A stretch of 64,000 nt of DNA from a candidate division WOR-1 bacterium RIFOXYB2_FULL_37_13 (GCA_001771535.1 MEUB01000036.1:842-64841); one strand, 5' to 3'; numbered from the stretch's first letter, positions 20,112 to 38,633 are shown. Program-made: numbers and translations. Notes: generated by a model from the sequence alone, not told the origin.

Positions 20112-20477
20112 ATGTCAACTTTAGCAGATTATAAAAAGTTTTGGTCAAGAAAATTCAAAGAAGACGAAAAAGCAAAAAAGAAGAAAATAAAACTTTTTAA
20201 GCAGCTTGCATCTGATGCAGCAAATATTTTAATAAAAGATTTTAAAGCCAAAAAGGTTTATCTCTTTGGATCAACTTTGGATGAAAAAATCTTTCATGAA
20301 AAATCAGACATAGATTTGGCAGTTGAAGGATTAAATCCTAAAATACATTTTTCCGCATTATCTGAAATAAAAAAACTGCTTTTTAAAAAAGCAAATGTAG
20401 ATCTTGTCCCTATGGAAGATGCATCGGAAGCACTTAAAGCATTAATTTTCAAAAAGGGAGAAATCTTATATGGCTAA
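20112..20477 (+). CDS. nucleotidyltransferase domain protein (MNT-type, minimal NTase)
   Basis: LFGS...SDIDLAV signature (GS-x9-13-DxD); 8-bp overlap with a downstream HEPN-like partner. Confidence 0.65.
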   Translation: MSTLADYKKFWSRKFKEDEKAKKKKIKLFKQLASDAANILIKDFKAKKVYLFGSTLDEKIFHEKSDIDLAVEGLNPKIHFSALSEIKKLLFKKANVDLVPMEDASEALKALIFKKGEILYG

Positions 20478-20943
20478 ATTTGAAGGACTGATTATAGATA
20501 TAGATTTAGAACTTCAAAATCTTGATCGATTAACTATGGAGCTTGGTCAAACAACACAAGAGATAAAAGAGATTCCGGATTATACGCAGATAAGAGCTAT
20601 TGGCAGTATTTTACATGATTTTTATACAGGACTTGAGAAAATTTTTGAAAGAATCGCGTTAACCATAGATGGAGGAGTTCCTGAAGGTGATGATTGGCAT
20701 ATTCAACTTTTACGCCGAATGCTTGCCAATATTCCAGACCGCAGACCTGCCTTATTTACAAAAAATGTTGGAGAGTCTTTAGGCGAATATCTTAGCTTTA
20801 GACATCTTTTTAGAAATATTTATGGTTTTGAATTAAAATGGGAGCGTATGAGTCCTCTTGTTGAAAAATTCCCTTCTGTTTTCAAAGAAGTTGAATCTCA
20901 ACTTATGAAGTTTATAAACTTCATATCAGAAATACAAAATTAA
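20470..20943 (+). CDS. HEPN domain / nucleotidyltransferase substrate-binding (HI0074-like) partner protein
   Basis: helical ~157-aa protein immediately downstream of the MNT gene with 8-bp overlap; R-x-x-x-x-H-like segment (FRHLFRN). Confidence 0.45.
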   Translation: MAKFEGLIIDIDLELQNLDRLTMELGQTTQEIKEIPDYTQIRAIGSILHDFYTGLEKIFERIALTIDGGVPEGDDWHIQLLRRMLANIPDRRPALFTKNVGESLGEYLSFRHLFRNIYGFELKWERMSPLVEKFPSVFKEVESQLMKFINFISEIQN

Positions 20944-20988
20944 GTATAAGAATCCTCATTCACTTAATACCTTTTTTAAAAAATAACC

Positions 20989-21076
20989 TGAAATTTTTCA
21001 AAAACCATCATGATACTCTCACAAGTTAGGGAGGAAGGGGCCAAGAGGAAAAGAAATCAAGGAGGGAACAATGACA
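20989..21076 (+). repeat. copy A of a duplicated ~85-bp 5' leader (approximately 80% identical to 25954..26033), ending in ATGACA
   Basis: GAAATTTTTCAAAAACCATCATGATACTCTCACAAGTTAGGGAGGAAGGGGCCAAGAGGAAAAGAAATCAAGGAGGGAACAATGACA aligned by eye against copy B. Confidence 0.7.
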
Positions 21077-21881
21077 AAGCCTGTAACAAAAACATCAAGA
21101 CCTAACCAAAGAACTCAAAGATGGCACAAGGAAAACCATAAAATGTTTTAGGTTGGAGAATGTAGAAATATGGGGGATGAAGAGGACTGCCGTTATGTAT
21201 TTTAGCGAAGCATTATATGACGGGCAGGTAAGGGGATGGAAAAAGATTTAAAAAAAGCAATTGAAAATTTGGAAAGTTTCAAGCTATCAGGCATGAAAGG
21301 GAGTTTTTGGCACAAGAGAAAAAAATGTATGTGGACAAAAGAGCTTTTTGAAAGAGAGGCTGAAAAAATAGTTAATAAACAATTTATTAGAGATATCGTT
21401 GATATTAAGTGAAAAAAACAGGCAAGTAATTTATTTAGAATATGAGATTAACACACAAAAAAAGAATTTTTTGAAAAATACAGTTTTAGGGAAAAGAATC
21501 TTAATAACAAGCCGGCAGGACTGGAATAATGAGGAGATAGTTTTAGCTTATCAGGGGCAAAAGGATGTTGAGTTTGCGTTTAGGCAAATAAAAAATCCAT
21601 TTCATACCTGTATCAGACCTCAATATCATTGGACAGATCAAAAGATAAAAGTTCATGTGCTTTGTTCCATTATTGCATTTACTATTTGCGCTTTAATTGA
21701 AAAGACCGCAAGAGAGAATGATTGTCCTTTTATAATAAACGACATTTTGGATCGCTTATCTTCAATACGAAAAGTAAAATACATAATCCCCAAAACTAAA
21801 AATAAATTCAACATTGAATACGGTATGGAAGAAATCGAAGATGAAGCAACAAGAAAATTATTTGAAGTTTTGATGAAATAA
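21070..21881 (+). pseudogene. decayed IS4/IS1634-like transposase (frame-broken fragments; the 21399..21881 ORF carries the C-terminal DDE region)
   Basis: C-terminal motif AFRQIKNPFHTCIRPQYHWTDQKIKVHVLCSIIAFTI resembles the IS4/IS1634 C-terminal consensus (...glRPiyHw...ri.gHlf...A); upstream frames are broken into 26-aa and 58-aa pieces. Confidence 0.55.
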
Positions 21882-22006
21882 TATATTTTTGGTGTATACA
21901 AGCTGTTCTTCTGAAAGTCAACAATGACAAGCCATGCAGGCTTTTTTATTTCTCCAGCAGTAAACTCACGCTAGCCCCGTTTCATAAAAAACAATTGGCT
22001 CTTTCT

Positions 22007-22474
22007 TTACTTAAAATTAAAAGCCACATTTTTTGTATTTTTAGGATCTATTTTAACAGGAAGAATAGCTCCAACCTGCATAAGATGTATAGCATTAAAA
22101 GGTATTACAAACCCATCTTCAACTATATAAGCAGGATACATAGGTGATGATATTTCTAATTTTATATCCATTACAGGCTGATAATTTAATTGGGTTTTTG
22201 ATGTTGCTATGCTTAATATTTCCCCCTTTCCATCAATCCCTTTTTTTAAAATATCTTTATCCCCAACAAAATTCCTCCAAATTACTTTTAATCCCTTGCT
22301 AAAAAACAACAGCAACAAAAGTATAGGCAGTAAAATTATTGCAATATTTATAATAGGAGTTATGCCAAAGTCTGTAATATTGCCAACATTGGAAAAATTC
22401 AAAATGAAAACTGAAGGAAGAACAAAAAAGATCCCAAAAATGACAAAAATAAGTACAAACTTTTCAGATCTCAT
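22007..22474 (-). CDS. DUF3592-like membrane protein, paralog 1 of 3 (N-terminal TM, OB-like core, GAxxPVKxDPKN motif)
   Basis: paralogous to 32879..33739 and to the split gene 29223..29474/31993..32274; shared upstream promoter module. Confidence 0.6.
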   Translation of the reverse strand: MRSEKFVLIFVIFGIFFVLPSVFILNFSNVGNITDFGITPIINIAIILLPILLLLLFFSKGLKVIWRNFVGDKDILKKGIDGKGEILSIATSKTQLNYQPVMDIKLEISSPMYPAYIVEDGFVIPFNAIHLMQVGAILPVKIDPKNTKNVAFNFK

Positions 22475-22679
22475 TTTCCCACCTCAAGAACAGCTTAAGC
22501 TAGTAGATATGCTTTGTCAATAAGGGCTTAAGCCCCAAGAACCAATTTTTCCTCCAAAATAAATGAAATTTTTTAAAAATGATAATGATAAGGTACTATA
22601 GATATTGTCAGTTTTTGTTTGAAAAATAATTTTCAGGGAGGCATATTTATTATGGTTATAAGTTTAGGTACTATTGTAA

Positions 22680-23900
22680 ATGACTCAAAGTGGAGCAATT
22701 ATTATTCATAATCTCAAAAAAGCGGATGAAGCAGGAGATAATGACGGAGAGATTGATCAGTTGCCAGAAAATGATGAAGTTCAAGCCGCTTTTCGTCAGT
22801 TTCAATTGGAGCATTTAAATGATACAAATGCCTGGTTAGGGTTTTTGGGAATAATGAAAAGTGAAGATTACTCAGAACCAAAAGAGATTATTCCAGAAGT
22901 ATCAACAGAAGAGTTGTATACTATTTTATCTCAAGCAAGCTCTCCTATTGTTGTTGATACGGGAGCATTAGCTTGGTGCGCTGCGTGCAGAAAAGTGTCG
23001 AAAGCCTTAAATGAAATTATTCATAAAGTTACAATAACTGCGAAAAACAATCCATGTAATCCTATTTTGCTAATACAGCCCCCTTCTATAACAATAAAGC
23101 TTCCTCTAATTACAGGAAACAATGTTTTTGAAATTGCAGTAGAAGATATTTATGGGAATGTTCGCAGTCAAAGCTTCAATGCCAATGGAGGAAGATTGGT
23201 TGATGAAAGCAAACAATATATCGCAGAAGCGCTGCCTTCTGGAAACAATTTACCGCTATTACCTGTAATGATATTTGAATTTTCAGATGTAATAAAGTTC
23301 TCTTACTCAAAAGACTTTTCAGAAAAATTTCATTCTGATGCTGAGTTAAAGCAAAGGATGGATATGCTTAAAGCTTTAGTTTTACAATTAAATACAACTA
23401 TCCCGGGATGTAATATTTCTGGTGTAGAAATCGACCCTTCAAAAGAAAATTCTCTTTTTGCCGGAATTATTCCCGACATGAATGACCCAAATAAACAAGT
23501 AATTTTAATATCAGCCTCTAAGCTTGCCATCTATACAGGGGAAAATGAATTGTTGAGCCTGATGGTTGCTGTGGCTGTCGCAAAAAATTTATATGGCAAT
23601 TTAATTTCAGGGAAAGAAAGCGAATGGAATAACTTGGCAATAAAAGCAAGGCAAAACGAAGTGATCCCTTTTTTAGATTGGCCTATATGGGGATTTAAAA
23701 CCCTTGATAGAGCCTATTTCGTAGGAAGAAACACAGAAAAACTTTTTGTAAACGCTTTGAGCCTGATTTTAGTAATGGGAAAGAAATTCGGTGAAACAAT
23801 AGATGATCCAACAACGCTAATAAACAAAATCCCTCTTTCAGAAGAGCAAAAAAAAGTTTTAAGAGAAATAGAAAAATTTGTCAAAGAAATTTTAAAGTGA
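22680..23900 (+). CDS. hypothetical protein (406 aa)
   Basis: long ORF with an RBS; first gene of a 4-gene plus-strand cluster. Confidence 0.55.
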   Translation: MTQSGAIIIHNLKKADEAGDNDGEIDQLPENDEVQAAFRQFQLEHLNDTNAWLGFLGIMKSEDYSEPKEIIPEVSTEELYTILSQASSPIVVDTGALAWCAACRKVSKALNEIIHKVTITAKNNPCNPILLIQPPSITIKLPLITGNNVFEIAVEDIYGNVRSQSFNANGGRLVDESKQYIAEALPSGNNLPLLPVMIFEFSDVIKFSYSKDFSEKFHSDAELKQRMDMLKALVLQLNTTIPGCNISGVEIDPSKENSLFAGIIPDMNDPNKQVILISASKLAIYTGENELLSLMVAVAVAKNLYGNLISGKESEWNNLAIKARQNEVIPFLDWPIWGFKTLDRAYFVGRNTEKLFVNALSLILVMGKKFGETIDDPTTLINKIPLSEEQKKVLREIEKFVKEILK

Positions 23901-25951
23901 TAAACATCTCTTTTGCAATCCCTCGTTCTCTTGCAAGCCTCGTCCACGAACCCAAGCAAGGAAAAAACGAAGAAGAAACAGCAATCAAAGCACTTATGCA
24001 AAATGGGTTTTCCAGAGAAGAGGCAATTGCGGTAATCAATGCTTTAGTAAAAATTCATTTTGGAGAGTTTGACACAGAAGGTGAAAAAAGATTTTTAAGA
24101 AATATGCCCGATTTTTTGAAAGTTTTAAAACGGCCCGCCCTCTTTAGAAGCACATTCCCTAATGGCGTGCACGATGAAAATCTAATAAATTCTTTTATTG
24201 ATTTCTTAATAGCTTTTGGAACAATAAAAAAGGGTTCTAAAGATTTAAAAAATTGCTTGAGCTGTCTAACAATGGACAATAATATTCCCCAAGAAATTAG
24301 CCTTGTTGCTGGTTATTTGTTAGACAGAAAAACTTCTTCTAATTTTGAGCTTATACGCCCTGTAAAAATAAATGGTAAGATTTACCTCCAAATTGAGGCT
24401 TCCTATATGAGAAAGGGAATTTCTCTTCCAGGCAACAATGTTTTAGAAGAGGGTTCTGTGCTATACAGAGATGGAAATTGGTTTTTTACTCCCCCGGTAA
24501 ACAACCAAAGAGACATAAGAACTCTTCCCACTATAAGTGGCGTTAGAATTCGTTCTCTTGCCCTTGCTGTTTCTGCCCCCAAACCAGGCAAATCGTTAGG
24601 TCATGAACTGCTCGCAAATCAACCGATGATCCCAATTTATTTCGATGGTCTGCCCAAAAATGCGCCGGAATATATCTCTTTAAGCCCAACAACAAAAGAA
24701 GTTGCCTTTAGTCTAAGCCAAGGGACTTATCTTGTTTTTGAAATAGGAAATCCATTCATAAAAAATTTTAGGGGTGCCGAAATAACTGTTCATTACACTC
24801 TTTTCCAAAAAGATGGAAATTTAGCCCTTAACCCAACCCTACTGCCCTCTTTTCATATAACAACTCCTGACCGCAAGCCTGTCTCATCCTTATCTATCAA
24901 TCCTCCATCTTTGTCTACGGGAGAACTGTTAAGGATCCAAATAGAGGATGAATTCTCAAGAATTTTTGTTGAATACGGAACTGGGAAAACCGGTTTTTAT
25001 GCAGAAGAAAATTTGGCATTAAATGAGCAAAACACAATCCCTCTTGAAATAAGATTGCAGAATGAAAGCTTTGTTATAAATGAATTTGGGGAATTTATTG
25101 TATTTAATGGGGGAGAAGAAAAAAGAAGAGGTTTCCCATATAACTCAAATTACAATCTGGATTTTACTTTGCCAGTAAGCCTCGAAAAAATCAGAAGTCC
25201 CTATGATCATCTTTCAAGATCAATTTTCGACAATAAAAAAGTAGCTGTTTTCTATGAGAGGGCGCCTATGACAAGAGGCCAAACCTTAGCTCATTTAGCC
25301 CATGCTTATTTATTGCTTCCCCCAATACTGCAAAGACAGATAAAAGTCATTAGATTTTCTTATAAAGAAGGACAAAGGAATAAGAGTGCAACATACAGCT
25401 TGCCAAATACAAGAGAAATAAGAATCAATGAAGGATTTTTCTTCCCCTCTCTTTCCTATCTGTCTGAAAAATTCGAAGCTTTTCGTAAAGAATGGGAAGA
25501 AGGGGTTCCTTCTTATGTAAAATCAGAAGCGCAAACTTTGGGGCTCGGATTTTGTGGCAGGCTTGAACTTATGCCTTTCGGTAACATGCCTAAAGGTTAT
25601 TCAGGAACAAAATCATCTGGCGAAAAAGGAGCTCCTTTCATCGTTACCACAAGACCCGCTTCTGGATTAGTAACTCGAGAACCGATAGATGTGGTAAATT
25701 TATATGCTGAAGCGGCTTACATTCTAGCAAGCAGAGAGCCAAATAGATTTTCTGGGTGGGAAAGAACAGATAAAAAAATAACAATTGCGGAAGATGTAAA
25801 AAACTTTCTTCTTGGGATAATAAGGCTCGAATTTGTATACAGCAAAAAACCTTCTCAAGCAACTTTTATCAAGAATCTGACAATCTTAAAAAGTAACGGC
25901 ATAATTACTGAAACTCAAGAAATACGAGCCAAGGCTTTGATGAAAAAATAA
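23897..25951 (+). CDS. hypothetical protein (684 aa)
   Basis: 4-bp overlap with the upstream gene; no recognisable motif. Confidence 0.55.
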   Translation: MINISFAIPRSLASLVHEPKQGKNEEETAIKALMQNGFSREEAIAVINALVKIHFGEFDTEGEKRFLRNMPDFLKVLKRPALFRSTFPNGVHDENLINSFIDFLIAFGTIKKGSKDLKNCLSCLTMDNNIPQEISLVAGYLLDRKTSSNFELIRPVKINGKIYLQIEASYMRKGISLPGNNVLEEGSVLYRDGNWFFTPPVNNQRDIRTLPTISGVRIRSLALAVSAPKPGKSLGHELLANQPMIPIYFDGLPKNAPEYISLSPTTKEVAFSLSQGTYLVFEIGNPFIKNFRGAEITVHYTLFQKDGNLALNPTLLPSFHITTPDRKPVSSLSINPPSLSTGELLRIQIEDEFSRIFVEYGTGKTGFYAEENLALNEQNTIPLEIRLQNESFVINEFGEFIVFNGGEEKRRGFPYNSNYNLDFTLPVSLEKIRSPYDHLSRSIFDNKKVAVFYERAPMTRGQTLAHLAHAYLLLPPILQRQIKVIRFSYKEGQRNKSATYSLPNTREIRINEGFFFPSLSYLSEKFEAFRKEWEEGVPSYVKSEAQTLGLGFCGRLELMPFGNMPKGYSGTKSSGEKGAPFIVTTRPASGLVTREPIDVVNLYAEAAYILASREPNRFSGWERTDKKITIAEDVKNFLLGIIRLEFVYSKKPSQATFIKNLTILKSNGIITETQEIRAKALMKK

Positions 25952-25953
25952 AG

Positions 25954-26033
25954 TGAAATTTTTCGAAAACCATTATGATACTCTTGCAAGTTAGGGAGAA
26001 AGAGGTCAAGCATTCAAGGAGAAAAAAATGACA
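25954..26033 (+). repeat. copy B of the duplicated leader, upstream of 26028..26540
   Basis: GAAATTTTTCGAAAACCATTATGATACTCTTGCAAGTTAGGGAGAAAGAGGTCAAGCATTCAAGGAGAAAAAAATGACA. Confidence 0.7.
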
Positions 26034-26540
26034 CAAACTTCCAGCAAAAGCTGTTTACTTTTGGCAATGAGTCGTCACGCTTTTTATGAAATTAACAGGC
26101 ATATTCCCACCACACAAAAAGGTTTGCCAAAAATCTTGAAAAGAAAATTGTATGGCGATGTAATTCCAAGAATAGAAAGAACTCTTTCCACAGCCGACAC
26201 AATAAAAGCCAAAGAAATAATTTCTATCGTTATTGAAACTGTAATGGATTTTTGGAAAAAAGACCCTTCTTTAGAAACGGCAAAAAAATTATCAGAAGAG
26301 CTAGACAATGTTATGTTAATAATCGAAACAGCACACTTTTTTAATCAAGTTATAGGAGAAAATATAGTTAATTTTTCATCTTTGTCTCCCTGTTTAAAAA
26401 TGTTCTCAAATCTACCGATAATAAGGAGATTAAGTCGTATGGTGGAAGATATTAAAGCAACAGCCCAAAAAAGCCCACCTGATTTCGCAATAACACCTGC
26501 TCTTTGGACTGGTTTCAAATCTTCAGAATACGACAATTGA
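26028..26540 (+). CDS. hypothetical protein (170 aa)
   Basis: preceded by a duplicated ~85-bp leader with an AAGGAG RBS. Confidence 0.5.
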   Translation: MTQTSSKSCLLLAMSRHAFYEINRHIPTTQKGLPKILKRKLYGDVIPRIERTLSTADTIKAKEIISIVIETVMDFWKKDPSLETAKKLSEELDNVMLIIETAHFFNQVIGENIVNFSSLSPCLKMFSNLPIIRRLSRMVEDIKATAQKSPPDFAITPALWTGFKSSEYDN

Positions 26541-26558
26541 AAAAAGGGGGAATAAAAA

Positions 26559-28661
26559 ATGGCAATGGAAATGGCAGCCTCTGCAATAGCACATGCTAGA
26601 CAACTCGGACAAACAGCTTTAAAAACAGTTTCCCAAGGTCAACACACTGCATCTCTTCGACAACAAGAAGCTTTTTTCCAAGTAATGTTTGATGCAAGTT
26701 TCCCTGCTGCAAAAAGAGTAGCTTACCAACTATATCCAAACAAAACATTGGTTGACAGTCCAAAATATAGGGCAAACTTAGAATTTCAACTGAGAAGAAT
26801 CCCTCCTGCACTACGAACAGCAATTTTCGCTGTATTGCATGCTATGCAACATCCAGTTGTTTTTAATAATATAGTAAACCCTCCAACAAATATACCCCAA
26901 ATAGCAAATTTATTAGGTGTTATTGAATTGGCAGGAAGAATGACGCTTCCATCGCTACTAGATAATCCTCAAATAAGTCCTAATCACTTTTCTATAGTCC
27001 AAAGAAATACTAGCAGAGTTGATTTGACACAATTTGACACCTTTTTTAAAGATGGGAGAATCCCTCGTCAATTTAGAAAAAATGATTTTGTTATAGTCGG
27101 ATCAGGCCCAGGAGGGATAATGACAGCACATATTTTACATGAAAAATACCCAGATGCTCAAATTCTAATAATTGAAGAAGGAGATTATTATCCTGGTAAA
27201 ATTTTCGGCAATTCAACTCCTATAAGAGCTACAGGTGAGTTCTATTCAGAAGGAGGAGTAACTGCTGCTATTGATTTAAAAAATGCAAGTGGAACAGCTG
27301 CCCCTACTGGCAAAGCGGTTGGAGGAAGCATGGAAATTTTTAGTACAACTGCGGCAAGAGTCAGAACCAGCGAGGAGTTTGAGCTTTATGGTTTAAGTAA
27401 ATATATGACTTGGGAAAAATATCAGAAGACAGTTGCTTGGGTAGAAGAGATACATGATGTTGCTGAAAACCCACAGGAAATAATCAACACAATAACCAAG
27501 GAAATGATCAGAGCCGCACAAAATATGCCTAAAGAATCTGGGATTAGAAATGCTGGTCCTACAAAATCATTTAGTGCTCATAAGTGTGGTGGCCTAGGAA
27601 AATGTCCTGTTGGCTGTGATACGGGAGGAAAAGAGACAACAGCTATGGTTCTTTTGCCTGCGCTTTTGGCATCTGGAAAAGTAGGATTAGTTTCAGGAGC
27701 AAAAGTTACTCAAACTATTTTAAGATCAGACAACAGCCCTAAGGCTGTAAAAATATTTTCAATGGAAGGCGTCTCTACCATTGGAATAGAAGATGGTATT
27801 ATTTCAAGTGCCGGTACATTTGGTTCCCCAGTTATAGTACATAACGCAGGGATTCGACTCCCTATGTTAGGCAAAAAATATACTGGGCAAGCAGCATTTG
27901 AACTTTTTGCATTTAATCCAAACAAAAAAATTGATCCCCCTCAACATGTAGGAAAGCCTCAATCTGGTTATATTGAGGTTTACAACACAGATAATGCGTT
28001 AGCTGATCTTGTTGCCACAGTAGACGGATTTATCGGGCTTGGTGAAGGGGCACGTCCTGCTACAGGAATTCTTGCAATGGCAAGGAGACGCTTATATGGA
28101 ACAAATTTAAGAGATTCAATAGAAGGACTTCCTTACACTGGCGTTTTTGGAGGAGTTCTCACTGAAAACATGGAAGATGTTAGGGCCGGTCTTTCAGGAG
28201 GAAATGTATATCCTGGATTGAGTAATATTTTTGGACAAAAAGTGCTAACATACTCATTATCTGAAAGAGATAGAATGAGAAGAAAATTGCTTGCATTAGC
28301 CCTCTTAAAAGTAGCCGCAAATACTCCTCAAGGAGAATATTTAGGAATAGGCCTCAATCATTTTTTTCCAAGTAAAAGCAAGTATGCTAGTTGGGGATTA
28401 TTCCTTTCTTCAGAATTACCTGAATTCGAAAGATATTTATTGCCAAATAAAAAAGTCGACTTGAGTGAAGAAATATTTTTTCATCCTATGGGATCAATGG
28501 GAGATTGTGTCGATAACGAAGGGAAGGTAATAGGCTCAAAAGATTTTTATGTAATAGATGGATCTTTATTTAAGGGCCCTGGAGTAAATCCTACAATTTC
28601 AATATTAACAGTTGCTGCTGAATTAGCTTCAAAAATAAAAAGGAGAAAAAGAATACATTAA
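26559..28661 (+). CDS. GMC-family FAD oxidoreductase-like protein with a ~170-aa N-terminal extension
   Basis: DFVIVGSGPGG dinucleotide-binding motif and C-terminal HPMGSMGDCVDNEGKV...VIDGSLFKGPGVNPTISI (GMC_oxred_C-like). Confidence 0.65.
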   Translation: MAMEMAASAIAHARQLGQTALKTVSQGQHTASLRQQEAFFQVMFDASFPAAKRVAYQLYPNKTLVDSPKYRANLEFQLRRIPPALRTAIFAVLHAMQHPVVFNNIVNPPTNIPQIANLLGVIELAGRMTLPSLLDNPQISPNHFSIVQRNTSRVDLTQFDTFFKDGRIPRQFRKNDFVIVGSGPGGIMTAHILHEKYPDAQILIIEEGDYYPGKIFGNSTPIRATGEFYSEGGVTAAIDLKNASGTAAPTGKAVGGSMEIFSTTAARVRTSEEFELYGLSKYMTWEKYQKTVAWVEEIHDVAENPQEIINTITKEMIRAAQNMPKESGIRNAGPTKSFSAHKCGGLGKCPVGCDTGGKETTAMVLLPALLASGKVGLVSGAKVTQTILRSDNSPKAVKIFSMEGVSTIGIEDGIISSAGTFGSPVIVHNAGIRLPMLGKKYTGQAAFELFAFNPNKKIDPPQHVGKPQSGYIEVYNTDNALADLVATVDGFIGLGEGARPATGILAMARRRLYGTNLRDSIEGLPYTGVFGGVLTENMEDVRAGLSGGNVYPGLSNIFGQKVLTYSLSERDRMRRKLLALALLKVAANTPQGEYLGIGLNHFFPSKSKYASWGLFLSSELPEFERYLLPNKKVDLSEEIFFHPMGSMGDCVDNEGKVIGSKDFYVIDGSLFKGPGVNPTISILTVAAELASKIKRRKRIH

Positions 28662-28800
28662 TAAAATTTATTTCTATTCGATAAAAACATATGCGTATAG
28701 TTTTTATAAACACTCTTCCTCCGTATAGAGTTATATAAAACTCAATTGCCCTTCTATCCAAAATCCTATATAATCCCAAACAAGAAAAGGAGTAATTAAT

Positions 28801-29226
28801 ATGTCAGACAAATTATTGATAATTTCAGTTATAATCGCAGGTTTAATTGTTTCTTTATTTATCGTATTTAATAACAACCCTATAAGTAAAACTGTATCCA
28901 CTTTTATGACAGATATAAACAGAATAAAGATTCCAAACAGTTTCCCCAAAGATATTCCAATTTACCCAAATGCAAAAGTTGAAACCTTATCAATTAAAAA
29001 AAGCCAGACCCTTCTTGTCCTTATTTCCAAAGATAGCCCGACACAAATAAACAACTTCTATGCTTTAGAAATAAAAAAATACGGCTGGACATATACATCA
29101 AAAGACATTAATTTCTATGCGTCAACCAAAGAACATCGTGAATTATTTGTTTCTATATCCAAACTCCCTGAAGAGATAAACAAAAATGGACATTATATAG
29201 TAATCAATGAAACAACTAAAGATTAA
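28801..29226 (+). CDS. small N-terminally anchored secreted protein, paralog of 32372..32872
   Basis: N-terminal TM/signal; shared motifs FPKD(I/L)P(I/V)Y.N.K and NFY...K.GW. Confidence 0.55.
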   Translation: MSDKLLIISVIIAGLIVSLFIVFNNNPISKTVSTFMTDINRIKIPNSFPKDIPIYPNAKVETLSIKKSQTLLVLISKDSPTQINNFYALEIKKYGWTYTSKDINFYASTKEHRELFVSISKLPEEINKNGHYIVINETTKD

Positions 29227-29474
29227 AGCGCAGTTTTTTCCCCTGAAGGATTAATATTCCAGGCATTTATAGCTACCCTTTTTGGGTTTTTTGGATCAAC
29301 CTTAACGGGGATAACGGCTCCCAACTGGATAAGAGAAAGCCCCATTAAAGGAATCAAAAATTTGTTTTCTATAATATAATATTCGAGCTTGTCCGTCAAC
29401 TCCCAGTCTTGTCTAATGCAAGATGTCCCTGAAGTAAAGACTGTTTCTAACGCAAAATGTCCCTGAAATGTCAT
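29223..29474 (-). pseudogene. C-terminal fragment of a DUF3592-like paralog split by IS insertion
   Basis: ...LIPLMGLSLIQLGAVIPVKVDPKNPKRVAINAWNINPS matches the intact paralog; the N-terminal residues are encoded by the IS inverted repeat. Confidence 0.7.
29228..29375 (-). repeat. ~150-bp tract nearly identical to 33229..33378 (3' region of the DUF3592-like paralogs)
   Basis: CTGAAGGATTAATATTCCAGGCATTTATAGCTACCCTTTTTGGGTTTTTTGGATCAACCTTAACGGGGATAACGGCTCCCAAC(T/C)GGATAAGAGAAAGCCCCATTAAAGGAA shared with only a few mismatches, while the flanks are diverged. Confidence 0.75.
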
Positions 29475-29484
29475 TATCGAGCTT

Positions 29485-30000
29485 ATGAATAAGCTAATAA
29501 TGATGGATCATAAAATAAAAACTGTTTCGAATCTTGAAAATCTTCTAAAAGCTGTGGTGAATTTAGATTTTCAACTAATTGACAAAAAAACTACCTACGA
29601 TTGGATTGATGATATTTTAAAAAGATTCAATTACATGTCTGCTTCAAAGAAACATAAAGGAATTTTAAAGCGTTACATTATGAAAATGACTGGTTATAGC
29701 GGTCGACAAGTTAAAAGGCTCATCAAAAAGCAATTTCAAACTGGAAAATTGACAATAAGTAAAAGTTCTAACCGTTGCAAATTCAAAAATATATACACCA
29801 AAAAAGATATCGCTTTGCTGGTTAAAACGGATAATCTTCACAATCGCTTAAATGGGTTAGCCACTAAAAAGATTTTTGAAACCGAGCATTTTACTTATGG
29901 AAAAAAGAAATATGAAAGGTTAAGTAAAATCTCTATAGCTCATATTTACAACTTGCGAAAAACTACGACATTGATCTTCCCCCCAAAAAGTAGACAGTAA
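29485..30000 (+). pseudogene. N-terminal (HTH) part of the IS481-like transposase, truncated by IS3 insertion
   Basis: KRYIMKMTGYSGRQVKRLIKK HTH-like segment; the ORF terminates inside the IS3 left inverted repeat. Confidence 0.6.
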
Positions 30001-30001
30001 A

Positions 30002-30862
30002 TTATGCATTCACGAACTTTTTTTCAAAGTTGTCTGGCGACAGAAACCCTATGGACGAGTGCCTTCTCTGTCGATTATAGAACACTTCGATGTAATTGAA
30101 AATGGACTGCCGCGCCTCCTTTCTTGTGGCATATCTTTCAAAATAGACTTGTTCAGTCTTCAATGAATGAAAGAAACTCTCGGTTATAGCATTATCGTAA
30201 CACCTCCCTTTGCGACTCATGCTTTGAATGAAACCATAATTGTTAAGCAATAGTCTCGTATCTCTGGCCGCATATTGAATACCTCGATCAGAATGAAATA
30301 TTATATTTTTGCCTGGCTGGCGGCTCAAGATAGCACCCTTTATGGCCTTGACCACCAATTGGCTTTCTAGGTGCTTTCCCATAGACCATCCGACAATCTT
30401 TCTGGAAAAGACATCAAGAACAACTGCAAGATAAAGCCAGCCCTCCAATGTCCAGATGTATGTAATATCTGATGTCCAGACTCGATTGGCTGATGCTGAA
30501 ACAAAGTTTTGCTTTAGAATATTTGGAGCTACTGGCAAAGTGTGCTGAGAATCAGTTGTCACTCTAAATTTTCTTCTTGTCTTAGCCACAAATTTGCCTT
30601 TCATAAGACGCTCAATCCTTTTTTTATTGTAATGATAACCTTGGCTCTTAAGTTCGGCACAAACTCTGGGCCGACCATAAAGCTCATGGTTTTCAAAAAA
30701 AATCTTCTTGATCTTATCCAGCAAAACCTCATTTTCTGTTTCTCTTTGGCTTTTCTCTCCCCTTAGCCATTTGTAATAGCCGCTTCGTGATACATCTAAC
30801 AACTGGCACATCTTCTCAACCGGAAAGTCGAAGCATTGCTCTCTTACAAACATAAATCTCAT
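30002..30862 (-). CDS. IS3 family transposase OrfB (DDE integrase core), expressed by -1 frameshift from OrfA
   Basis: rve-type core: WTSDITYIW, HSDRGIQY, YDNAITESFF; IS3 DDE(35)E spacing. Confidence 0.8.
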   Translation of the reverse strand: MRFMFVREQCFDFPVEKMCQLLDVSRSGYYKWLRGEKSQRETENEVLLDKIKKIFFENHELYGRPRVCAELKSQGYHYNKKRIERLMKGKFVAKTRRKFRVTTDSQHTLPVAPNILKQNFVSASANRVWTSDITYIWTLEGWLYLAVVLDVFSRKIVGWSMGKHLESQLVVKAIKGAILSRQPGKNIIFHSDRGIQYAARDTRLLLNNYGFIQSMSRKGRCYDNAITESFFHSLKTEQVYFERYATRKEARQSIFNYIEVFYNRQRRHSSIGFLSPDNFEKKFVNA

Positions 30863-31158
30863 CTCGGTTGTTTGGAGAAGATGGCCACTGCTTTTTTTAA
30901 AATATCTCGCTCCAACCTGGCCTCTGCCAACTCTTTTCTTAAACGCCTGATTTTAAGAGATTCCTCAATCCCTCCGCTTGTTTCTCCGTCTTCTCCCTCT
31001 CTTCGATCACGTTTTTGCCATCCATACAGCGTACTCGATGACACTCCTAAATCTTTAGCAATTGAGGCTACAGGTCGCTTGCTGGTATTAATTAAATCCA
31101 GCGTTTCCCTAATGAAGTCCTTATCACACCGTTTATATGGTCCTTTCTTTTTCCCCAT
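30859..31158 (-). CDS. IS3 family transposase OrfA (HTH)
   Basis: IS3/IS911-type HTH (VASIAKDLGVSSSTLYGWQK) and leucine zipper. Confidence 0.8.
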   Translation of the reverse strand: MGKKKGPYKRCDKDFIRETLDLINTSKRPVASIAKDLGVSSSTLYGWQKRDRREGEDGETSGGIEESLKIRRLRKELAEARLERDILKKAVAIFSKQPR

Positions 31159-31227
31159 AAAATCCCCCCCCTCTAATATATTATCAAAATCTCTAATTAC
31201 TGTGTCTACTAAAAGGGGGGAGGGTCA

Positions 31228-31985
31228 CATATCGTGACAGATCAATTACTTTCACCAAGACTAATCCAAGGAAAATTAATATCGGCGAAAGAAAACGCCC
31301 TGAACCTCAAGGCAAGCCAGGCTATATCCGCGTAGATACTGTGCATCAGGGCGATTCCGACAAACAAAAAGGGGTCTATTATATAAATACTGTCGACGAA
31401 GTTACCCAATGGCAGGCAATTGCCGCTGTAGAAAAAATATCTGAAACATATTTACTCGAGGCTCTCTTAGGCTTGCTCAATCAATTTCCATTTGAAATCA
31501 TTGAATTTCATAGCGACAATGGTTCAGAATACATCAACAGACAAGTCGCAGAACTTTTAAACAGACTTTTAATTAAACTTACGAAATCTCGAGCTAGACA
31601 CTGTAATGATAACGCTTTAGTAGAGTCAAAAAATGGGGCTGTAATTAGAAAATGGATGGGCTATGCTCATATTCCTCAGAAACATGCCCAAGACATCAAC
31701 AAATTCTTTAAAAAATATTTTAATTTATATTTAAACTACTACAGACCTTCTATTTTCCCTGAAATTGTATTTTCTGCAAAAAGAAAAGAGGTCAAAAAAT
31801 ACAGATATGAGAATACAATGACCCCTTTCGCAAAACTAAAATCCATTTTTGAATACAAAAAGTTCCTCAAAAAGAATACTTCCGTCGTTGACTTAGAATT
31901 GTTTTTAAGCAATGATAGTCCTAATGAGTTTGCTGAAAAGGTGGTGAAGGCTCAAGATTGTCTCTTTAATGGCATTTCTACCTAA
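31228..31985 (+). pseudogene. C-terminal (DDE catalytic core) part of the IS481-like transposase, downstream of the nested IS3
   Basis: HSDNGSEY and CNDNALVESKNGAVIRKWMGY motifs (rve family); same frame as 29485..30000 once the 1256-bp IS3 and its 3-bp duplication are removed. Confidence 0.6.
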
Positions 31986-31992
31986 CCCTTTT

Positions 31993-32274
31993 TCAGGGAC
32001 ATTCTTGCATTAGAAAATACTCTCCCTTTTCACGAAGCTCCTGATCACTAACCAATGAAGTCCACAGAATCTTAAGAACAGAAATTATAAAAGGAAGAAA
32101 AATCAAGATCGACACAACAGGAATAGCTACGGGTAAAATATCACTCGGTCGCGAACCAAACCCCATAGCAACTCGGCTTCTATACATATCCAAAAAAACA
32201 GCTGGAATTATACCAAAAAAAGCAACGGTAAAAATAAAAATAGAAAAAATAATTATAAATTTTGCTGATCTCAT
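31993..32274 (-). pseudogene. N-terminal fragment of a DUF3592-like paralog split by IS insertion
   Basis: MRSAKFIII..RSRVAMG..SDQELREKGEY then FLMQECP-stop encoded by the IS right inverted repeat. Confidence 0.7.
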
Positions 32275-32371
32275 CTCTCCACCTCAATAACAGCTTAAAT
32301 TAGGAGAAATGCTTTGTCAATAAAGGTTTAAGTAGTATAATGCCTATACATTTAGTAAAAGGAGTTGTCAT

Positions 32372-32872
32372 ATGAATAAAGGTTTATTGATTGGCGTCAT
32401 AGTTTTGGGATTGATCGCATCTCTGTTTGTAGTCTTTAATTACAACTCAATGTTCGGTCTAGTCGTAGGTTTTATGACAGGGGGAGAAACTACTTGGAAC
32501 AACAATGCTTTAGGAACTAACCAGGGAGGCATAATTCACTTAGCCGCAATGCCGGGGAAAGGAATAAATCCCCCAAAACAGTTTCCAAAAGATTTACCTG
32601 TATATTCAAACAGTAAAATTATTACTCTGCATATAGATACAACACAAACTCCAAACTTGATCAATATAATAATGGAATCTGACGATGATGCAAATACAGT
32701 ACACAATTTTTATAAATCTGAAATGCAAAAGAATGGATGGGCGTTGAAAAGTGAAAATGGTTCAGTTTTTATGACAGATTGGACAAAAGACATCCGCAAA
32801 TTGAGCATTATGATATCTCAAGGCAAACGGGGAAATCCAAATACGCCAGGATGTTCTATAATGATTAATTAA
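32372..32872 (+). CDS. small N-terminally anchored secreted protein, paralog of 28801..29226
   Basis: TM/signal N-terminus, PKQFPKDLPVYSNSKI and NFYKSEMQKNGW motifs shared with the paralog; RBS AAAGGAG. Confidence 0.55.
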   Translation: MNKGLLIGVIVLGLIASLFVVFNYNSMFGLVVGFMTGGETTWNNNALGTNQGGIIHLAAMPGKGINPPKQFPKDLPVYSNSKIITLHIDTTQTPNLINIIMESDDDANTVHNFYKSEMQKNGWALKSENGSVFMTDWTKDIRKLSIMISQGKRGNPNTPGCSIMIN

Positions 32873-32878
32873 GCCTTA

Positions 32879-33739
32879 TTATATAGGCTTTTGTATACTT
32901 CCAGTCATAGCTATCATGACATGTGTTGGATCATTGTTGTCTATTTCACAAGGATATACAGCTCCCACTCTAATAAGTTGTAAGGCAACATCCGGCAAAG
33001 GCATCTCTTTATCAAGAACATATGGAGTTATTCCTTCTCCGGTTACCTCATATTTAAGAGAATAAACTTTTTGACCATTTTTTGTCTTTTCCGCATCGGC
33101 AAAACCCATTATCCTAGCCTGGCCTTTTTTTCCATTAACCACAACGCCTCGCTCCACATTCCCAGCAACCCCTAAATTTTGAAAATTTACAGGCATCCCT
33201 TGCATTATGGGTTGTCCTTGAAAATTTTGCGCAGTTCTTTTTTCTGAAGGATTAATATTCCAGGCATTTATAGCTACCCTTTTTGGGTTTTTTGGATCAA
33301 CCTTAACGGGGATAACGGCTCCCAACCGGATAAGAGAAAGCCCCATTAAAGGAACCATAAATTTGTCTTCTACAATATAAGGAGGCTGGTTTGAGGTCGA
33401 CACTTCCAGTTTCAGTTTCATCATCGGTTGATTGTTTATTTGCGTTCCGGTCTGAATAACCTCCAAAATTCGCGCTTGCCCGTCAACTCCTTTTTCACGA
33501 AGTTCTTGATCACTAAATATCATTTTCCAGATTATTTTAATAGGGCCAATCAAAGAAGGAATAACAAAAAAAATAATCGCAATAATAAATACTATCGGCA
33601 AAAAATCTATCGGACGCAAACTAAGTCCCATATCGACTCTACTTCTATAAATATTCAGAAAAACGGCCGGAAGAACACCAAAACAAACAACAATAAAAAC
33701 AAAAACAGAAGAAATAATTGCAAATTTTACTGATCTCAT
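32879..33739 (-). CDS. DUF3592-like membrane protein, intact two-domain paralog (286 aa)
   Basis: MRSVKFAII..RSRVDMG..SDQELREKG..GAVIPVKVDPKNPKRVAI, then a second degenerate copy (VGAVYPCEIDNNDPTHVMI); RBS GAGGTG. Confidence 0.65.
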   Translation of the reverse strand: MRSVKFAIISSVFVFIVVCFGVLPAVFLNIYRSRVDMGLSLRPIDFLPIVFIIAIIFFVIPSLIGPIKIIWKMIFSDQELREKGVDGQARILEVIQTGTQINNQPMMKLKLEVSTSNQPPYIVEDKFMVPLMGLSLIRLGAVIPVKVDPKNPKRVAINAWNINPSEKRTAQNFQGQPIMQGMPVNFQNLGVAGNVERGVVVNGKKGQARIMGFADAEKTKNGQKVYSLKYEVTGEGITPYVLDKEMPLPDVALQLIRVGAVYPCEIDNNDPTHVMIAMTGSIQKPI

Positions 33740-33756
33740 TTTTTCACCTCAATGAC

Positions 33757-33785
33757 AGCTTAAAATAGTAGAACTGCTTTGTCAA
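33757..33785 (-). promoter_or_regulatory. minus-strand promoter (TTGACA-17-TAAGCT) plus a GAGGTG RBS for the DUF3592-like paralog; conserved upstream of all three paralogs
   Basis: conserved block CACCTCAA..ACAGCTTAA...TGCTTTGTCAATAA.GG.TTAAG at 22480..22530, 32280..32330 and 33745..33795. Confidence 0.4.
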
Positions 33786-33806
33786 TAAGGGTTTAAGAAG
33801 TATAAT
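33779..33806 (+). promoter_or_regulatory. TTGTCA-16-TATAAT promoter ending 9 nt before the rsmH ATG; its -35 hexamer overlaps a minus-strand TTGACA serving the divergent paralog gene
   Basis: GCTTTGTCAATAAGGGTTTAAGAAGTATAATG; the same module recurs at 32296..32335 and partly at 22495..22530. Confidence 0.5.
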
Positions 33807-33815
33807 GTTTATTAT

Positions 33816-34715
33816 ATGGATACATTCCACCTGCCTGTAATGGCAAAAGAGATAGTTAATTTTCTCTCCCCTCTTAACGGAAAAACAATCGTCGATTGTA
33901 CGGTGGGTGGAGGGGGACACATCTCAAAACTAATATCCAATATCCAATTTCCAATTTCCAATGTCCAATGTCCAATGTCCAATTTCCACATCATAGCTAT
34001 CGACCAAGACCAGGAAGCTCTTGAGTTTGCTAAAAAACGATTGGCTAAATATGACAACATTGAATATATCCATGACAATTTTGGCAACTTGGCAAATATA
34101 ATAAAAGAGTCTGTTGATGCTTTTCTCTTTGATCTTGGCATTTCATCATACCAGATAGACCAGGCTTCCCGCGGTTTTAGCATACGATACGATGCGCCTC
34201 TTGATATGCGAATGGACAAAAGTAAACAGACATCCGCTCGCGAAATAATCCACAATTCAAGCGAGGATGAATTAGCGCAAATTTTCAAAGAGTATGGTGA
34301 AGAGCGGTTTTCAAGAAGAGTTGCCCGCGCGATTGTCTTGGAAAGAGACAAAAAAGAGATAAACACAACATTTGAGCTGAAAGATATAATAGAGAAAGCA
34401 ATCCCCACATGGAAAAAGAGAGAGTCTGTTACCCGCATATTCCAAGCACTCCGAATTGCTGTTAATTCAGAGCTTGATGTTTTAAAAAAAGCTCTGGAAT
34501 CAACAATCCCTTTACTTAAACCGGAAGGGAAAATAATCGTAATGTCGTATCATTCATTGGAAGATCGAATTGTTAAATGGTTTTTCAGAGATAAAGCTAA
34601 AAATGGTATACTTAATATACTTACAAAAAAGCCTGTTCTTGCGACAGAAGAAGAGACTGCAATTAATCCAAGGGCAAAAAGCGCTAAGTTGCGGTGCGCT
34701 GAAAAGAACAACTAA
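33816..34715 (+). CDS. rsmH: 16S rRNA (cytosine1402-N4)-methyltransferase RsmH, with a ~10-residue in-frame insertion encoded by a heptanucleotide repeat
   Basis: GGGGH, IAIDQD, FDLGISSYQID, DMRMD motifs of MraW/RsmH. Confidence 0.85.
   Translation: MDTFHLPVMAKEIVNFLSPLNGKTIVDCTVGGGGHISKLISNIQFPISNVQCPMSNFHIIAIDQDQEALEFAKKRLAKYDNIEYIHDNFGNLANIIKESVDAFLFDLGISSYQIDQASRGFSIRYDAPLDMRMDKSKQTSAREIIHNSSEDELAQIFKEYGEERFSRRVARAIVLERDKKEINTTFELKDIIEKAIPTWKKRESVTRIFQALRIAVNSELDVLKKALESTIPLLKPEGKIIVMSYHSLEDRIVKWFFRDKAKNGILNILTKKPVLATEEETAINPRAKSAKLRCAEKNN
33935..33990 (+). repeat. heptanucleotide tandem repeat (NTCCAAT)x8 in frame inside rsmH
   Basis: atccaat atccaat ttccaat ttccaat gtccaat gtccaat gtccaat ttccaca read directly. 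Confidence 0.85.
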
Positions 34716-38147: not shown

Positions 38148-38633
38148 ATGAAAAAATTTGTTATGCTGCTATCTATTTTTGTCGCTGGGGTTATTGTTTT
38201 GGGTTTACCGGTATCTGCCGCATGGAGAGGCACTGAAGGAAGAGAAGCTACGAGGCGAACCGTTGGGAAAGCTGCTGTAAAAGAATCTGGAAAAACAACA
38301 GAAGATATCAGAGGAAGATCAGGGAGAACTGAAGGAAGAAGAGCTGTTGGAAAAGCAGCTGTAAAACAGTCCGGGAAAACAACAGAAGATATCAGAGGCG
38401 TTGAAGGAAGACAGGAGACAAGAAGAACCACCAGTAAAGCGATTCTTAAAGAATCTGGAAAAACAACAGAAGATATCAGAGGAAGATCAGGGAGAACTGA
38501 AGGAAGAAGAGCTGTTGGAAAAGCAGCTGTAAAACAGTCAGGGAAAACAACAGAAGAGATAAGAGGGGTTGAAGGAAGACAAGAATTCAGACAAGAGGTA
38601 GGCAAAGACGTCTACGAAGAGACAAAAGAATAA
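38148..38633 (+). CDS. secreted basic tandem-repeat protein (about five 28-aa repeats ...GKAAVKxSGKTTEDIRG...)
   Basis: strong RBS AAGGAGGG, signal peptide MKKFVMLLSIFVAGVIVLGLPVSAAW, repeat-encoded body; the antisense ORF 38105..38605 is a shadow. Confidence 0.7.
   Translation: MKKFVMLLSIFVAGVIVLGLPVSAAWRGTEGREATRRTVGKAAVKESGKTTEDIRGRSGRTEGRRAVGKAAVKQSGKTTEDIRGVEGRQETRRTTSKAILKESGKTTEDIRGRSGRTEGRRAVGKAAVKQSGKTTEEIRGVEGRQEFRQEVGKDVYEETKE
38245..38600 (+). repeat. tandem DNA repeat, 84-bp unit in a 168-bp higher-order period, coding
   Basis: GAAGATATCAGAGGAAGATCAGGGAGAACTGAAGGAAGAAGAGCTGTTGG... recurs 168 bp apart (38301 and 38469). Confidence 0.8.

What the first reader, a model, noticed from the sequence alone, without database searches (positions are those of the whole stretch)
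28801..33739. Three-copy cassette family: DUF3592-like membrane protein plus small anchored secreted partner, sharing a bidirectional promoter module
Membrane proteins 22007..22474, the split gene 29223..29474/31993..32274, and 32879..33739 share the motifs MRS.KF.II, RSRV.MG, SDQELREKG, and GAVIPVKVDPKNPKRVAI. The last is a two-domain version. Next to two of them lie paralogous small proteins (28801..29226 and 32372..32872) with the motifs FPKD(I/L)P(I/V)Y.N.K and NFY...K.GW. A ~55-bp block (CACCTCAA..ACAGCTTAA...TGCTTTGTCAATAA.GG.TTAAG) is conserved upstream of all three membrane genes. It contains a GAGGTG RBS and overlapping divergent -35 hexamers (TTGACA on one strand, TTGTCA on the other), and the same block is reused as the rsmH promoter. 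Tandemly amplified membrane/secreted pairs in an IS-rich region suggest a diversifying surface or defence (for example abortive-infection-like) function.
Basis: partly seen in the sequence, partly recalled or inferred. Interest (0 to 1): 0.55.

Follow-up and report, generated by a model that had tools for sequence, protein, structure and literature searches.

The report
Duplicated DUF3592-like membrane gene family
In a Saganbacteria (WOR-1) genome, an uncharacterised membrane-protein gene and the small periplasmic-protein genes beside it were duplicated locally along with their promoter; one copy is already dead, the others evolve like ordinary conserved genes, and nothing points to defence or surface variation.

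Summary
The sequence observations hold. Three membrane-protein genes (22007-22474, split 29223-29474/31993-32274, 32879-33739) are paralogues. So are the two small anchored proteins (28801-29226, 32372-32872). A ~60-nt block precedes all three membrane genes. The "cassette" reading is weaker. The window is Saganbacteria RIFOXYC2_FULL_37_10. A sister species has one membrane gene (two-domain, 297 aa) plus both small genes between trpC and rsmH, so the extra copies are recent local duplications. The split copy is a pseudogene: it carries a nested IS insertion and a frameshifting 86-nt deletion. A near-identical strain appears to lack it. The membrane proteins are a divergent DUF3592-superfamily branch, with two TM helices and one or two OB-like barrels predicted to be cytoplasmic. 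The partners belong to a broad family (1,485 representative clusters) of anchored periplasmic alpha/beta domains (PF27226; fold nearest PA1624). The two families are adjacent only in these two species, not in 84 other loci. Their dN/dS (0.13-0.17) equals that of rsmH and trpC, and PADLOC and PHROGs find nothing. The block carries a near-consensus promoter facing p166 and rsmH, back-to-back with a weaker one for the membrane gene. This is an ordinary lineage-specific duplication of orphan envelope genes; their function is unknown.

The parts
22007..22474 (-). mem155: intact single-domain paralogue (2 TM helices plus one OB-like barrel). It has no partner and sits in a strain-specific island.
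   Evidence: 41% aa identity to mem286; family HMM E = 2.4e-73; no counterpart in the 16.5-kb sister locus apart from the mem297 D1 region.
22475..22532 (-). Block 1: conserved promoter/leader of mem155 (TTGACA-17-TAAGCT, GAGGTG SD). It has no plus-strand -10.
28801..29226 (+). p141: small N-terminally anchored periplasmic alpha/beta-domain protein (partner paralogue 1).
   Evidence: BLASTP to p166 E = 9e-23; orthologue in the sister genome 89.6% nt identical.
29223..29403 (-). 3' fragment of the pseudogene psi-memB (end of domain 1). The last 152 nt are 94% identical to mem286.
29404..32021 (+). Outer IS (rve/DDE transposase, itself split) inserted in psi-memB. It has imperfect terminal inverted repeats ..TCTAATGCAAGA(A)TGTCCCTGAA.. 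and a 4-bp CTCC target duplication (29400-29403 / 32022-32025).
29978..31233 (-). Inner IS3-family element (orfA 30859-31158, orfB 30002-30862) nested in the outer IS. Boundaries are approximate, taken from its own inverted repeats.
32022..32274 (-). 5' fragment of psi-memB (TM hairpin up to ...SDQELREKG).
   Evidence: 76% nt identity to mem286. After precise IS excision the frame breaks at an 86-nt deletion.
32275..32341 (.). Block 2. Minus strand: TTGACA-17-TAAGCT plus GAGGTG for psi-memB. Plus strand: TTGTCA-16-TATAAT (32314-32341) for p166.
32372..32872 (+). p166: partner paralogue 2 (PF27226 'AF_1845' family by precomputed annotation).
32879..33739 (-). mem286: the intact, ancestral two-domain membrane gene (2 TM helices, D1, disordered linker, D2).
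   Evidence: Orthologue is the 297-aa gene of the sister genome, 67% aa identity, dN/dS 0.17; AF2 model; D1 vs D2 E = 1e-15.
33740..33806 (.). Block 3. Minus-strand promoter/leader of mem286. Plus-strand TTGTCA-16-TATAAT (33779-33806) lies 9 nt before the rsmH ATG.
   Evidence: the same arrangement occurs in the sister genome.
33816..34715 (+). rsmH (context): divergent neighbour that shares block 3. It contains a heptanucleotide repeat tract at 33932-33988.

Best explanation
This is a lineage-specific local expansion, already decaying, of two orphan envelope-protein gene families. It is not a multi-copy functional cassette.

The basic unit, shared with a sister species, lies between trpC and rsmH. 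It consists of one two-domain DUF3592-superfamily membrane gene transcribed divergently from rsmH, plus two paralogous genes for small anchored periplasmic proteins (p167/p166 and p141).

In the window's lineage the unit was most probably duplicated in tandem, carrying its promoter/leader block. Differential deletions then left p141 with copy B, and p166 with copy C. Copy B was then destroyed by loss of D2, an 86-nt frameshifting deletion, an IS insertion, and a second IS inside the first. Part of it was later homogenised against copy C (a 94% identical stretch). An older single-domain paralogue (mem155) sits in a strain-specific island and carries the same leader block.

Protein level (inferred). 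The membrane protein is an N-in/C-in hairpin that tethers one or two OB-like beta-barrels to the cytoplasmic face of the inner membrane. It most likely acts as an accessory or scaffold subunit of some membrane process, as has been predicted for one mycobacterial DUF3592 protein. The partners are single-pass proteins that present a PA1624/DcrB-like alpha/beta domain to the periplasm.

The block is the membrane gene's promoter plus Shine-Dalgarno leader. Its -35 hexamer overlaps, back-to-back, the -35 of a stronger near-consensus promoter that drives p166 (block 2) or a nearly leaderless rsmH (block 3).

Shown: paralogy, pseudogenisation, synteny, purifying selection, fold classes, lack of wider co-occurrence. 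Inferred: duplication history, membrane topology, promoter activity, biochemical role.
For: - Organism and sister-species synteny.
- Only one membrane gene in the sister locus.
- Pseudogene: IS inverted repeats with a CTCC duplication, an 86-nt frameshifting deletion, and mosaic 94%/76% identity.
- Nested IS.
- Deletion junctions consistent with tandem duplication and reciprocal loss. Window 32307-32879 joined to 32877-33763 corresponds to sister 7946-8511 joined to 9123-10044. Window 28675-28705 corresponds to sister 7762-7792..
- A variant strain lacks block 2 and psi-memB upstream of p166.
- Independent assemblies reproduce the window at 100% identity.
- DUF3592 superfamily. It is the top or only Pfam hit for all 9 relatives (13.8-29.1 bits). 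P0003 passes the cut-off and matches mem286 at E = 2.6e-6.. Giant-virus DUF3592 proteins appear among the fold hits.
- Membrane-protein fold: 2 TM helices plus two OB-like barrels.
- Partner family breadth and fold.
- Purifying selection equal to housekeeping genes.
- No co-occurrence elsewhere.
- No defence or phage signal.
- Promoters. No RNA family or fold signal.
- Literature: DUF3592 function is unknown (PMC12482557). ML2271 is predicted to be an MptB cofactor (bioRxiv 10.64898/2026.07.15.738315).
Against: - The duplication history is not unique. The sister genome already has a half-block upstream of p167, so an ancestral two-copy state with loss in the sister cannot be excluded.
- Both partner paralogues are retained next to the membrane gene in both species. 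Their TM helix is far more conserved than the rest (pN 0.22 vs 0.43, with synonymous sites saturated, pS 0.90; GxxxS motif). That hints at a specific intramembrane interaction, which would make the adjacency functional.
- The membrane-protein model has only moderate confidence (pLDDT 60.7, 4-sequence alignment).
- Topology rests on charge counting only.
- Sigma-70 consensus rules are unverified for Saganbacteria.
- In the sister genome an 82-nt insert splits the block between the -35 and the SD, yet the gene stays under purifying selection. The block therefore cannot be strictly required in its intact form.
Confidence: 0.62

Rival explanations
1. A genuine two-component envelope module. The partner's conserved TM helix packs against the TM hairpin of the DUF3592-like protein. 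This links a periplasmic alpha/beta 'sensor' domain to cytoplasmic OB-like 'output' domains. Two partner paralogues would serve one two-domain membrane protein.
For: - Adjacency is kept in two species with dS of about 1.
- Duplication and loss left one partner beside each membrane copy.
- In the partner TM helix, 16 of the first 25 residues are invariant between paralogues that are 34-41% identical overall. It contains a GLIxS motif. Synonymous sites are saturated, so this is not gene conversion.
- There are two partners and two beta-domains.
Against: - The genes are convergent and lie 6 nt apart or overlap by 4 nt, so they are not co-transcribed.
- There is no co-occurrence in 6 + 78 loci of distant relatives.
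- The soluble domains are predicted to lie on opposite sides of the membrane.
- mem155 has no partner.
- Synteny between such close relatives is expected by default.
Confidence: 0.22
2. One reading: a diversifying surface or anti-phage (abortive-infection-like) cassette, amplified in a mobile-element-rich hotspot.
For: - The locus lies in a variable interval that also holds an MNT/HepT toxin-antitoxin pair (its MNT component matches the PADLOC candidate PDC-S09), IS elements and orphan genes.
- Copy number differs between strains and species.
- Elsewhere a DUF3592 protein is encoded in LXG toxin loci (PMC12482557).
Against: - No PADLOC or PHROGs hits for any cassette protein.
- Purifying selection at housekeeping level, strongest in D1 (dN/dS 0.08).
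- The beta-domains are predicted to be cytoplasmic, not surface-exposed.
- The extra adjacent copy is a pseudogene.
- The core pair sits in a conserved chromosomal position next to rsmH-ftsL.
Confidence: 0.05
3. The conserved block is mainly something other than a promoter, such as an operator for a shared regulator or a cis-regulatory leader RNA that co-ordinates the paralogues.
For: - The block is conserved as much as or more than the adjacent coding sequence: 85% for blocks 2/3 against 76% for the 343-nt alignment that spans the block and the 5' CDS.
- It contains a CTTAA...TTAAG symmetry.
Against: - No Rfam match and no folding signal (z = +0.30, -0.15 and -1.06).
- The conserved positions coincide with the -35, the -10-like hexamer and the SD.
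- The sister copy tolerates an 82-nt insertion in the middle.
Confidence: 0.08
4. A metagenome mis-assembly: the repeated genes and the nested IS are chimeric joins.
For: The window comes from a MAG, and repeats and IS elements are typical break points.
Against: At least five independently assembled contigs from different samples and pipelines match the window at 100% across p141 / psi-memB / IS / p166 / mem286 / rsmH.
Confidence: 0.02

Closest known systems
DUF3592 (Pfam PF12158) membrane proteins
   Same: A small beta-barrel domain ending in the V-K/R-x-D-P-x-N-P-K-x-V motif, attached to TM helices. DUF3592 is the top or only Pfam hit for every member of this branch. One relative (P0003) passes the curated cut-off.
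   Different: The window proteins score only 14.6-14.8 bits against a cut-off of 25.3, and mem155 gives no hit. Both TM helices precede the domain. The domain is duplicated in tandem in mem286, mem297, P0003 and L011. The function of DUF3592 is itself unknown (PMC12482557).
ML2271, a mycobacterial DUF3592 protein predicted to be a cofactor of the mannosyltransferase MptB (bioRxiv 10.64898/2026.07.15.738315)
   Same: It is the only functional lead for the superfamily: a DUF3592 membrane protein acting as an accessory subunit of an inner-membrane enzyme complex, together with a small single-TM protein.
   Different: That claim is an AlphaFold3 prediction plus phenotype correlation. No MptB-like gene lies near the window locus. 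Homology to ML2271 was not tested here.
PF27226 'AF_1845' family / PA1624 of Pseudomonas aeruginosa (PDB 6td9)
   Different: Sequence identity to PA1624 is 5%. PA1624 is a two-domain protein of unknown function (PMC7716261). p141 has no precomputed Pfam hit. The model is absent from the local Pfam copy, so membership could not be rescored here.
NfeD-type proteins such as YuaF: a TM hairpin plus a C-terminal OB-fold (recalled from memory, not tested)
   Same: The overall architecture is the same: an N-terminal membrane anchor followed by a soluble OB-like barrel on the cytoplasmic side.
Back-to-back divergent sigma-70 promoters with overlapping -35 hexamers
   Same: TTGACA (minus strand) and TTGTCA (plus strand) occupy the same 7 bp. 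The plus-strand partner scores 11/12 against consensus in blocks 2 and 3.
   Different: Activity is untested. The minus-strand -10 (TAAGCT) matches only 3/6. Block 1 has no plus-strand -10.

Membership tests
DUF3592 (PF12158) | Score at or above Pfam's gathering cut-off (25.3 bits) | tested here: not met
   mem286 14.6 bits, psi-memB C-terminal fragment 14.8, mem155 no hit, sister mem297 16.3. Relatives score 13.8-21.4 bits; only P0003 passes, at 29.1.
DUF3592 (PF12158) | Significant sequence homology to a protein that is a member (transitive membership at superfamily level) | tested here: met
   mem286 vs P0003: E = 2.6e-6 in a 5.8-billion-sequence search. P0003 scores 29.1 bits on PF12158. 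The family HMM links all nine sequences.
DUF3592 (PF12158) | C-terminal strand motif (G-x4-V-K/R-x-D-P-x-N-P-K) and a small beta-barrel fold attached to TM helices | tested here: met
PF27226 (AF_1845) | Match to the Pfam model | tested here: inconclusive
   The precomputed annotation lists PF27226 for P0004 and P0005, which are p166 and its orthologue, but not for p141. The model is not in the local Pfam copy, where p166 gets no family.
PA1624 / DcrB / Mog1-PsbP-like periplasmic alpha/beta domains | Shared fold | tested here: met
Known anti-phage defence systems (PADLOC-DB v2) | HMM match of any component | tested here: not met
   No hit at E <= 0.01 for either membrane protein, either partner, or the four island proteins. 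Only the unrelated MNT matches candidate PDC-S09. PHROGs also gave nothing.
Conserved two-gene system (membrane protein + partner) | Co-occurrence of the two families in unrelated genomes | tested here: not met
   0 of 6 loci with distant membrane relatives hold a partner-like ORF. 0 of 78 loci with distant partner relatives hold a DUF3592-like ORF. None of 96 immediate neighbours hits DUF3592.
Conserved two-gene system (membrane protein + partner) | Physical interaction | not testable with these tools

The most novel reading that the evidence does not exclude
The small anchored proteins and the DUF3592-like hairpin form a Saganbacteria-specific trans-membrane relay. The GxxxS TM helix conserved between p141 and p166 docks onto the hairpin. 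A periplasmic PA1624-like domain would then control one or two cytoplasmic OB-like barrels. The module is wired by overlapping divergent promoters to rsmH-ftsL, the start of the division/cell-wall cluster. That would give the first functional handle on DUF3592.
Probability: 0.12. Interest if true: 0.5.

Novelty: new member of a known kind. Interest (0 to 1): 0.25.

Why it matters
The value is mainly in annotation and evolution. The analysis turns several 'hypothetical proteins' of a candidate phylum into a divergent DUF3592 branch with an unusual layout: two TM helices first, then tandem barrels predicted to be cytoplasmic. It also places the partners in a large, scattered periplasmic domain family. 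It gives a clean small example of duplication with promoter carry-over, reciprocal loss, gene conversion and IS-driven decay, seen in an uncultivated lineage across two species and several strains. It removes a candidate from the list of possible new defence systems. If the TM-helix conservation does reflect a real complex, the locus would be a compact system for asking what DUF3592 domains do.

Tried and rejected
- Curated family searches (Pfam, NCBIfam, PADLOC, PHROGs) gave nothing above threshold for any cassette protein.
- PDB sequence searches with profiles of both families gave nothing below E = 0.65.
- Word-indexed homology searches found only the same two species plus P0003. They even missed the in-window paralogue mem155, so they understate family size.
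- Pfam scan of 55 partner relatives showed no shared family in the local copy.
A 6-sequence alignment worked.
- Rfam and RNA folding of the block were negative, so the idea of a leader RNA was dropped.
- Literature searches for AF_1845 / PF27226 found nothing.
- The assembly-artefact idea was rejected after independent contigs matched at 100%.
- An NfeD/SPFH-type relationship was considered from memory, but no supporting hit or neighbouring gene was seen.

Full report
1. What is there.
Formal alignment confirms that mem155 (22007-22474, -), the two fragments 31993-32274 / 29223-29474 (-) and mem286 (32879-33739, -) are paralogues at about 40% identity. A family HMM finds only these pieces in all 64 kb. 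The small proteins p141 (28801-29226) and p166 (32372-32872) are homologous: 34% identity, E = 9e-23. mem286 is an internal duplication: D1 vs D2 is 36% identical, E = 1e-15. The upstream block is real. The exact core TTATTGACAAAGCA occurs only three times, each about 36 nt before a membrane-gene ATG.

2. Origin and comparison with relatives.
mem286 is 100% identical to a hypothetical protein of candidate division WOR-1 bacterium RIFOXYC2_FULL_37_10, which belongs to Candidatus Saganbacteria. A sister species, RIFOXYA2_FULL_36_21, is seen in many assemblies (L001-L005, L007, L008). It has the interval trpC / unrelated 270-aa gene / p167(+) / p141(+) / mem297(-) / rsmH(+). So it holds one membrane gene, of the two-domain type, and both partners. 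In the window the same interval is 13.7 kb long. It also holds an MNT/HepT pair, an IS fragment, mem155 and four orphan genes, none of which has a counterpart in the sister locus.

Nucleotide matches show precise junctions:
- Window p166 plus its leader corresponds to sister 7946-8511. It is joined directly to mem286, which corresponds to sister 9123-10044. That is exactly a deletion of p141.
- Window p141 corresponds to sister 8672-9103. It is joined to the end of D1 of the middle copy (sister 9516-9659), which is a deletion of D2.
- A 31-nt tag upstream of window p141 corresponds to sequence upstream of sister p167.

The most economical history is a tandem duplication of [p167 / p141 / mem / block] followed by reciprocal losses. 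This is an inference. The sister genome already carries a half-block upstream of p167, so an older two-copy state cannot be excluded.

3. The middle copy is dead.
The insertion at 29404-32021 has imperfect terminal inverted repeats and a 4-bp CTCC target duplication. Its rve-type transposase is itself split by an IS3-family element at about 29978-31233. After removing the IS precisely, the gene reads MRS...SDQELREKGVDGQARIL and then leaves the frame. An 86-nt stretch that encodes the core of D1 is missing. The 152 nt after the deletion are 94% identical to mem286, while the 343-nt alignment spanning the block and the 5' CDS is 76% identical. That mosaic points to recent recombination or gene conversion.

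Five or more independent contigs reproduce this arrangement exactly, so it is not an assembly artefact. Contigs from a strain with 99.5% identical p166 and mem286 (L100-L102, L106) diverge completely from 18 nt upstream of the p166 ATG. They carry another promoter-like sequence, with no block 2 and no psi-memB in the ~200 nt available, after which the contigs end. Copy number therefore varies between strains.

4. What the proteins are.
No curated family passes threshold. DUF3592 is nevertheless the top or only Pfam hit for mem286, the pseudogene fragment, mem297 and five distant relatives. Those relatives come from Parcubacteria, a Methanobacteriaceae archaeon, Ignavibacteriae, Patescibacteria and Yeosuana (13.8-21.4 bits). 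P0003, which matches mem286 at E = 2.6e-6, passes at 29.1 bits. The motif G..V(K/R).DP.NPK is invariant across all nine sequences.

Every family member has a short basic N-terminus and a strongly basic segment right after TM2, for example 6 K/R in mem155 against 0 in its loop. By the positive-inside rule the barrels are cytoplasmic. This is an inference.

5. Is it a system?
Six loci with distant membrane relatives contain no partner-like ORF. Seventy-eight metagenomic loci with distant partner relatives (281 kb) contain no DUF3592-like ORF. Their 96 immediate neighbours show no DUF3592 and no recurrent theme. Membrane and partner genes are convergent, 6 nt apart or overlapping by 4 nt, so they are not co-transcribed. 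The soluble domains are predicted on opposite sides of the membrane.

One observation favours a link. The partner TM helix has 16 of its first 25 residues invariant between paralogues that are otherwise 34-41% identical. It contains a GLIxS motif. Its pN is 0.22 against 0.43 for the rest, although synonymous sites are saturated (pS 0.90), so this is selection and not gene conversion. I keep a TM-mediated complex as the main rival, at about 0.2.

6. Selection and defence.
Between the two species dN/dS is 0.17 for mem286 (D1 0.08), 0.13 for p166 and 0.37 for p141, against 0.12 for both rsmH and trpC. PADLOC and PHROGs give nothing for any cassette protein. 'Diversifying surface or defence function' is therefore not supported.

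7. The block.
On the minus strand it reads TTGACA-17-TAAGCT-7-GAGGTG-5-ATG. On the plus strand, blocks 2 and 3 read TTGTCA-16-TATAAT. These are the two best sigma-70 matches (11/12) in 12 kb. They sit 30 nt before the p166 ATG, which has an AAGGAG SD, and 9 nt before the rsmH ATG, which has no SD. In the sister genome the rsmH spacing is 6 nt, which implies a leaderless or nearly leaderless rsmH mRNA. The two -35 hexamers share the same 7 bp.

However, the stronger promoter serves the neighbour, not the membrane gene. In the sister genome an 82-nt MITE-like insert flanked by TTAA splits the block between the -35 and the SD without any sign of relaxed selection on mem297. No Rfam family matches and no folding signal is seen. 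Promoter activity is inferred throughout.

8. Verdict.
The locus is an ordinary lineage-specific duplication, already decaying, of orphan envelope genes from two known but uncharacterised families. Its function remains unknown. The best guess is that the membrane protein is a cytoplasm-facing accessory or scaffold subunit, by analogy with the predicted ML2271-MptB complex (bioRxiv 10.64898/2026.07.15.738315). Interest is low to moderate (0.25).

Noticed in passing
window 33932-33988 (+, inside rsmH) and 19240-19271 (-, 3' end of trpC): A heptanucleotide tandem repeat (CCAATNT)n occurs only at these two sites: 10 pattern matches against 0.03 expected. The two tracts are in inverted orientation and bracket the whole variable trpC-rsmH interval. 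The repeat is absent from the sister genome and from all 93 loci fetched by then. In rsmH it encodes an in-frame 19-aa insert just after the GGGGH SAM loop. Independent assemblies carry either 8 units (in frame: window, L094/L103, L105) or 7 units (frameshift, stop at codon 57: L095, L104, L106), on two different strain backgrounds. This could be slipped-strand ON/OFF switching of a 16S rRNA methyltransferase. Caveat: all three 7-unit alleles come from MEGAHIT k141 assemblies.
   Followed up: partly
window 28801-29226 vs L001 8677-9102: p141 has dS = 0.23 between the two species, whereas its neighbours have 0.67-1.9 (p166 1.06, mem286 1.09, rsmH 0.67, trpC 1.88). This suggests a recent exchange of just this gene between the lineages, or an unusual constraint on its synonymous sites.
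   Followed up: no
window 20112-28661: This is a strain-specific island with no counterpart in the sister locus. It holds an MNT (Polbeta) / HepT-like toxin-antitoxin pair (20112-20943; the MNT matches PADLOC candidate PDC-S09), a transposase fragment (21236-21881), and a four-gene orphan operon of 406, 684, 170 and 700 aa. The last has GMC-oxidoreductase N and C domains behind a 170-aa unknown N-terminus.
   Followed up: partly
window 20978-21045, 25943-26010, 22556-22590: A second repeated intergenic module (68 nt, 87% identical, plus a 35-nt partial copy) lies upstream of three plus-strand genes in the island. It may be another duplicated promoter element.
   Followed up: no
L001 10045-10126 and about 7830-7930: The sister genome has MITE-like short elements with CCCCGATT...AATCGGGG hairpins. 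One, flanked by a TTAA duplication, is inserted in the middle of the promoter block upstream of mem297. A related unit lies upstream of p167.
   Followed up: no
window 33797-33818; L001 10165-10184: rsmH appears to be leaderless or nearly so. A consensus TATAAT lies 9 nt (window) or 6 nt (sister) before the ATG, and there is no Shine-Dalgarno sequence.
   Followed up: partly
window 38226-38566: An 84-nt tandem repeat of 3.6 copies (72% matches) lies in a coding region about 4.5 kb downstream of the locus. It was not examined.
   Followed up: no
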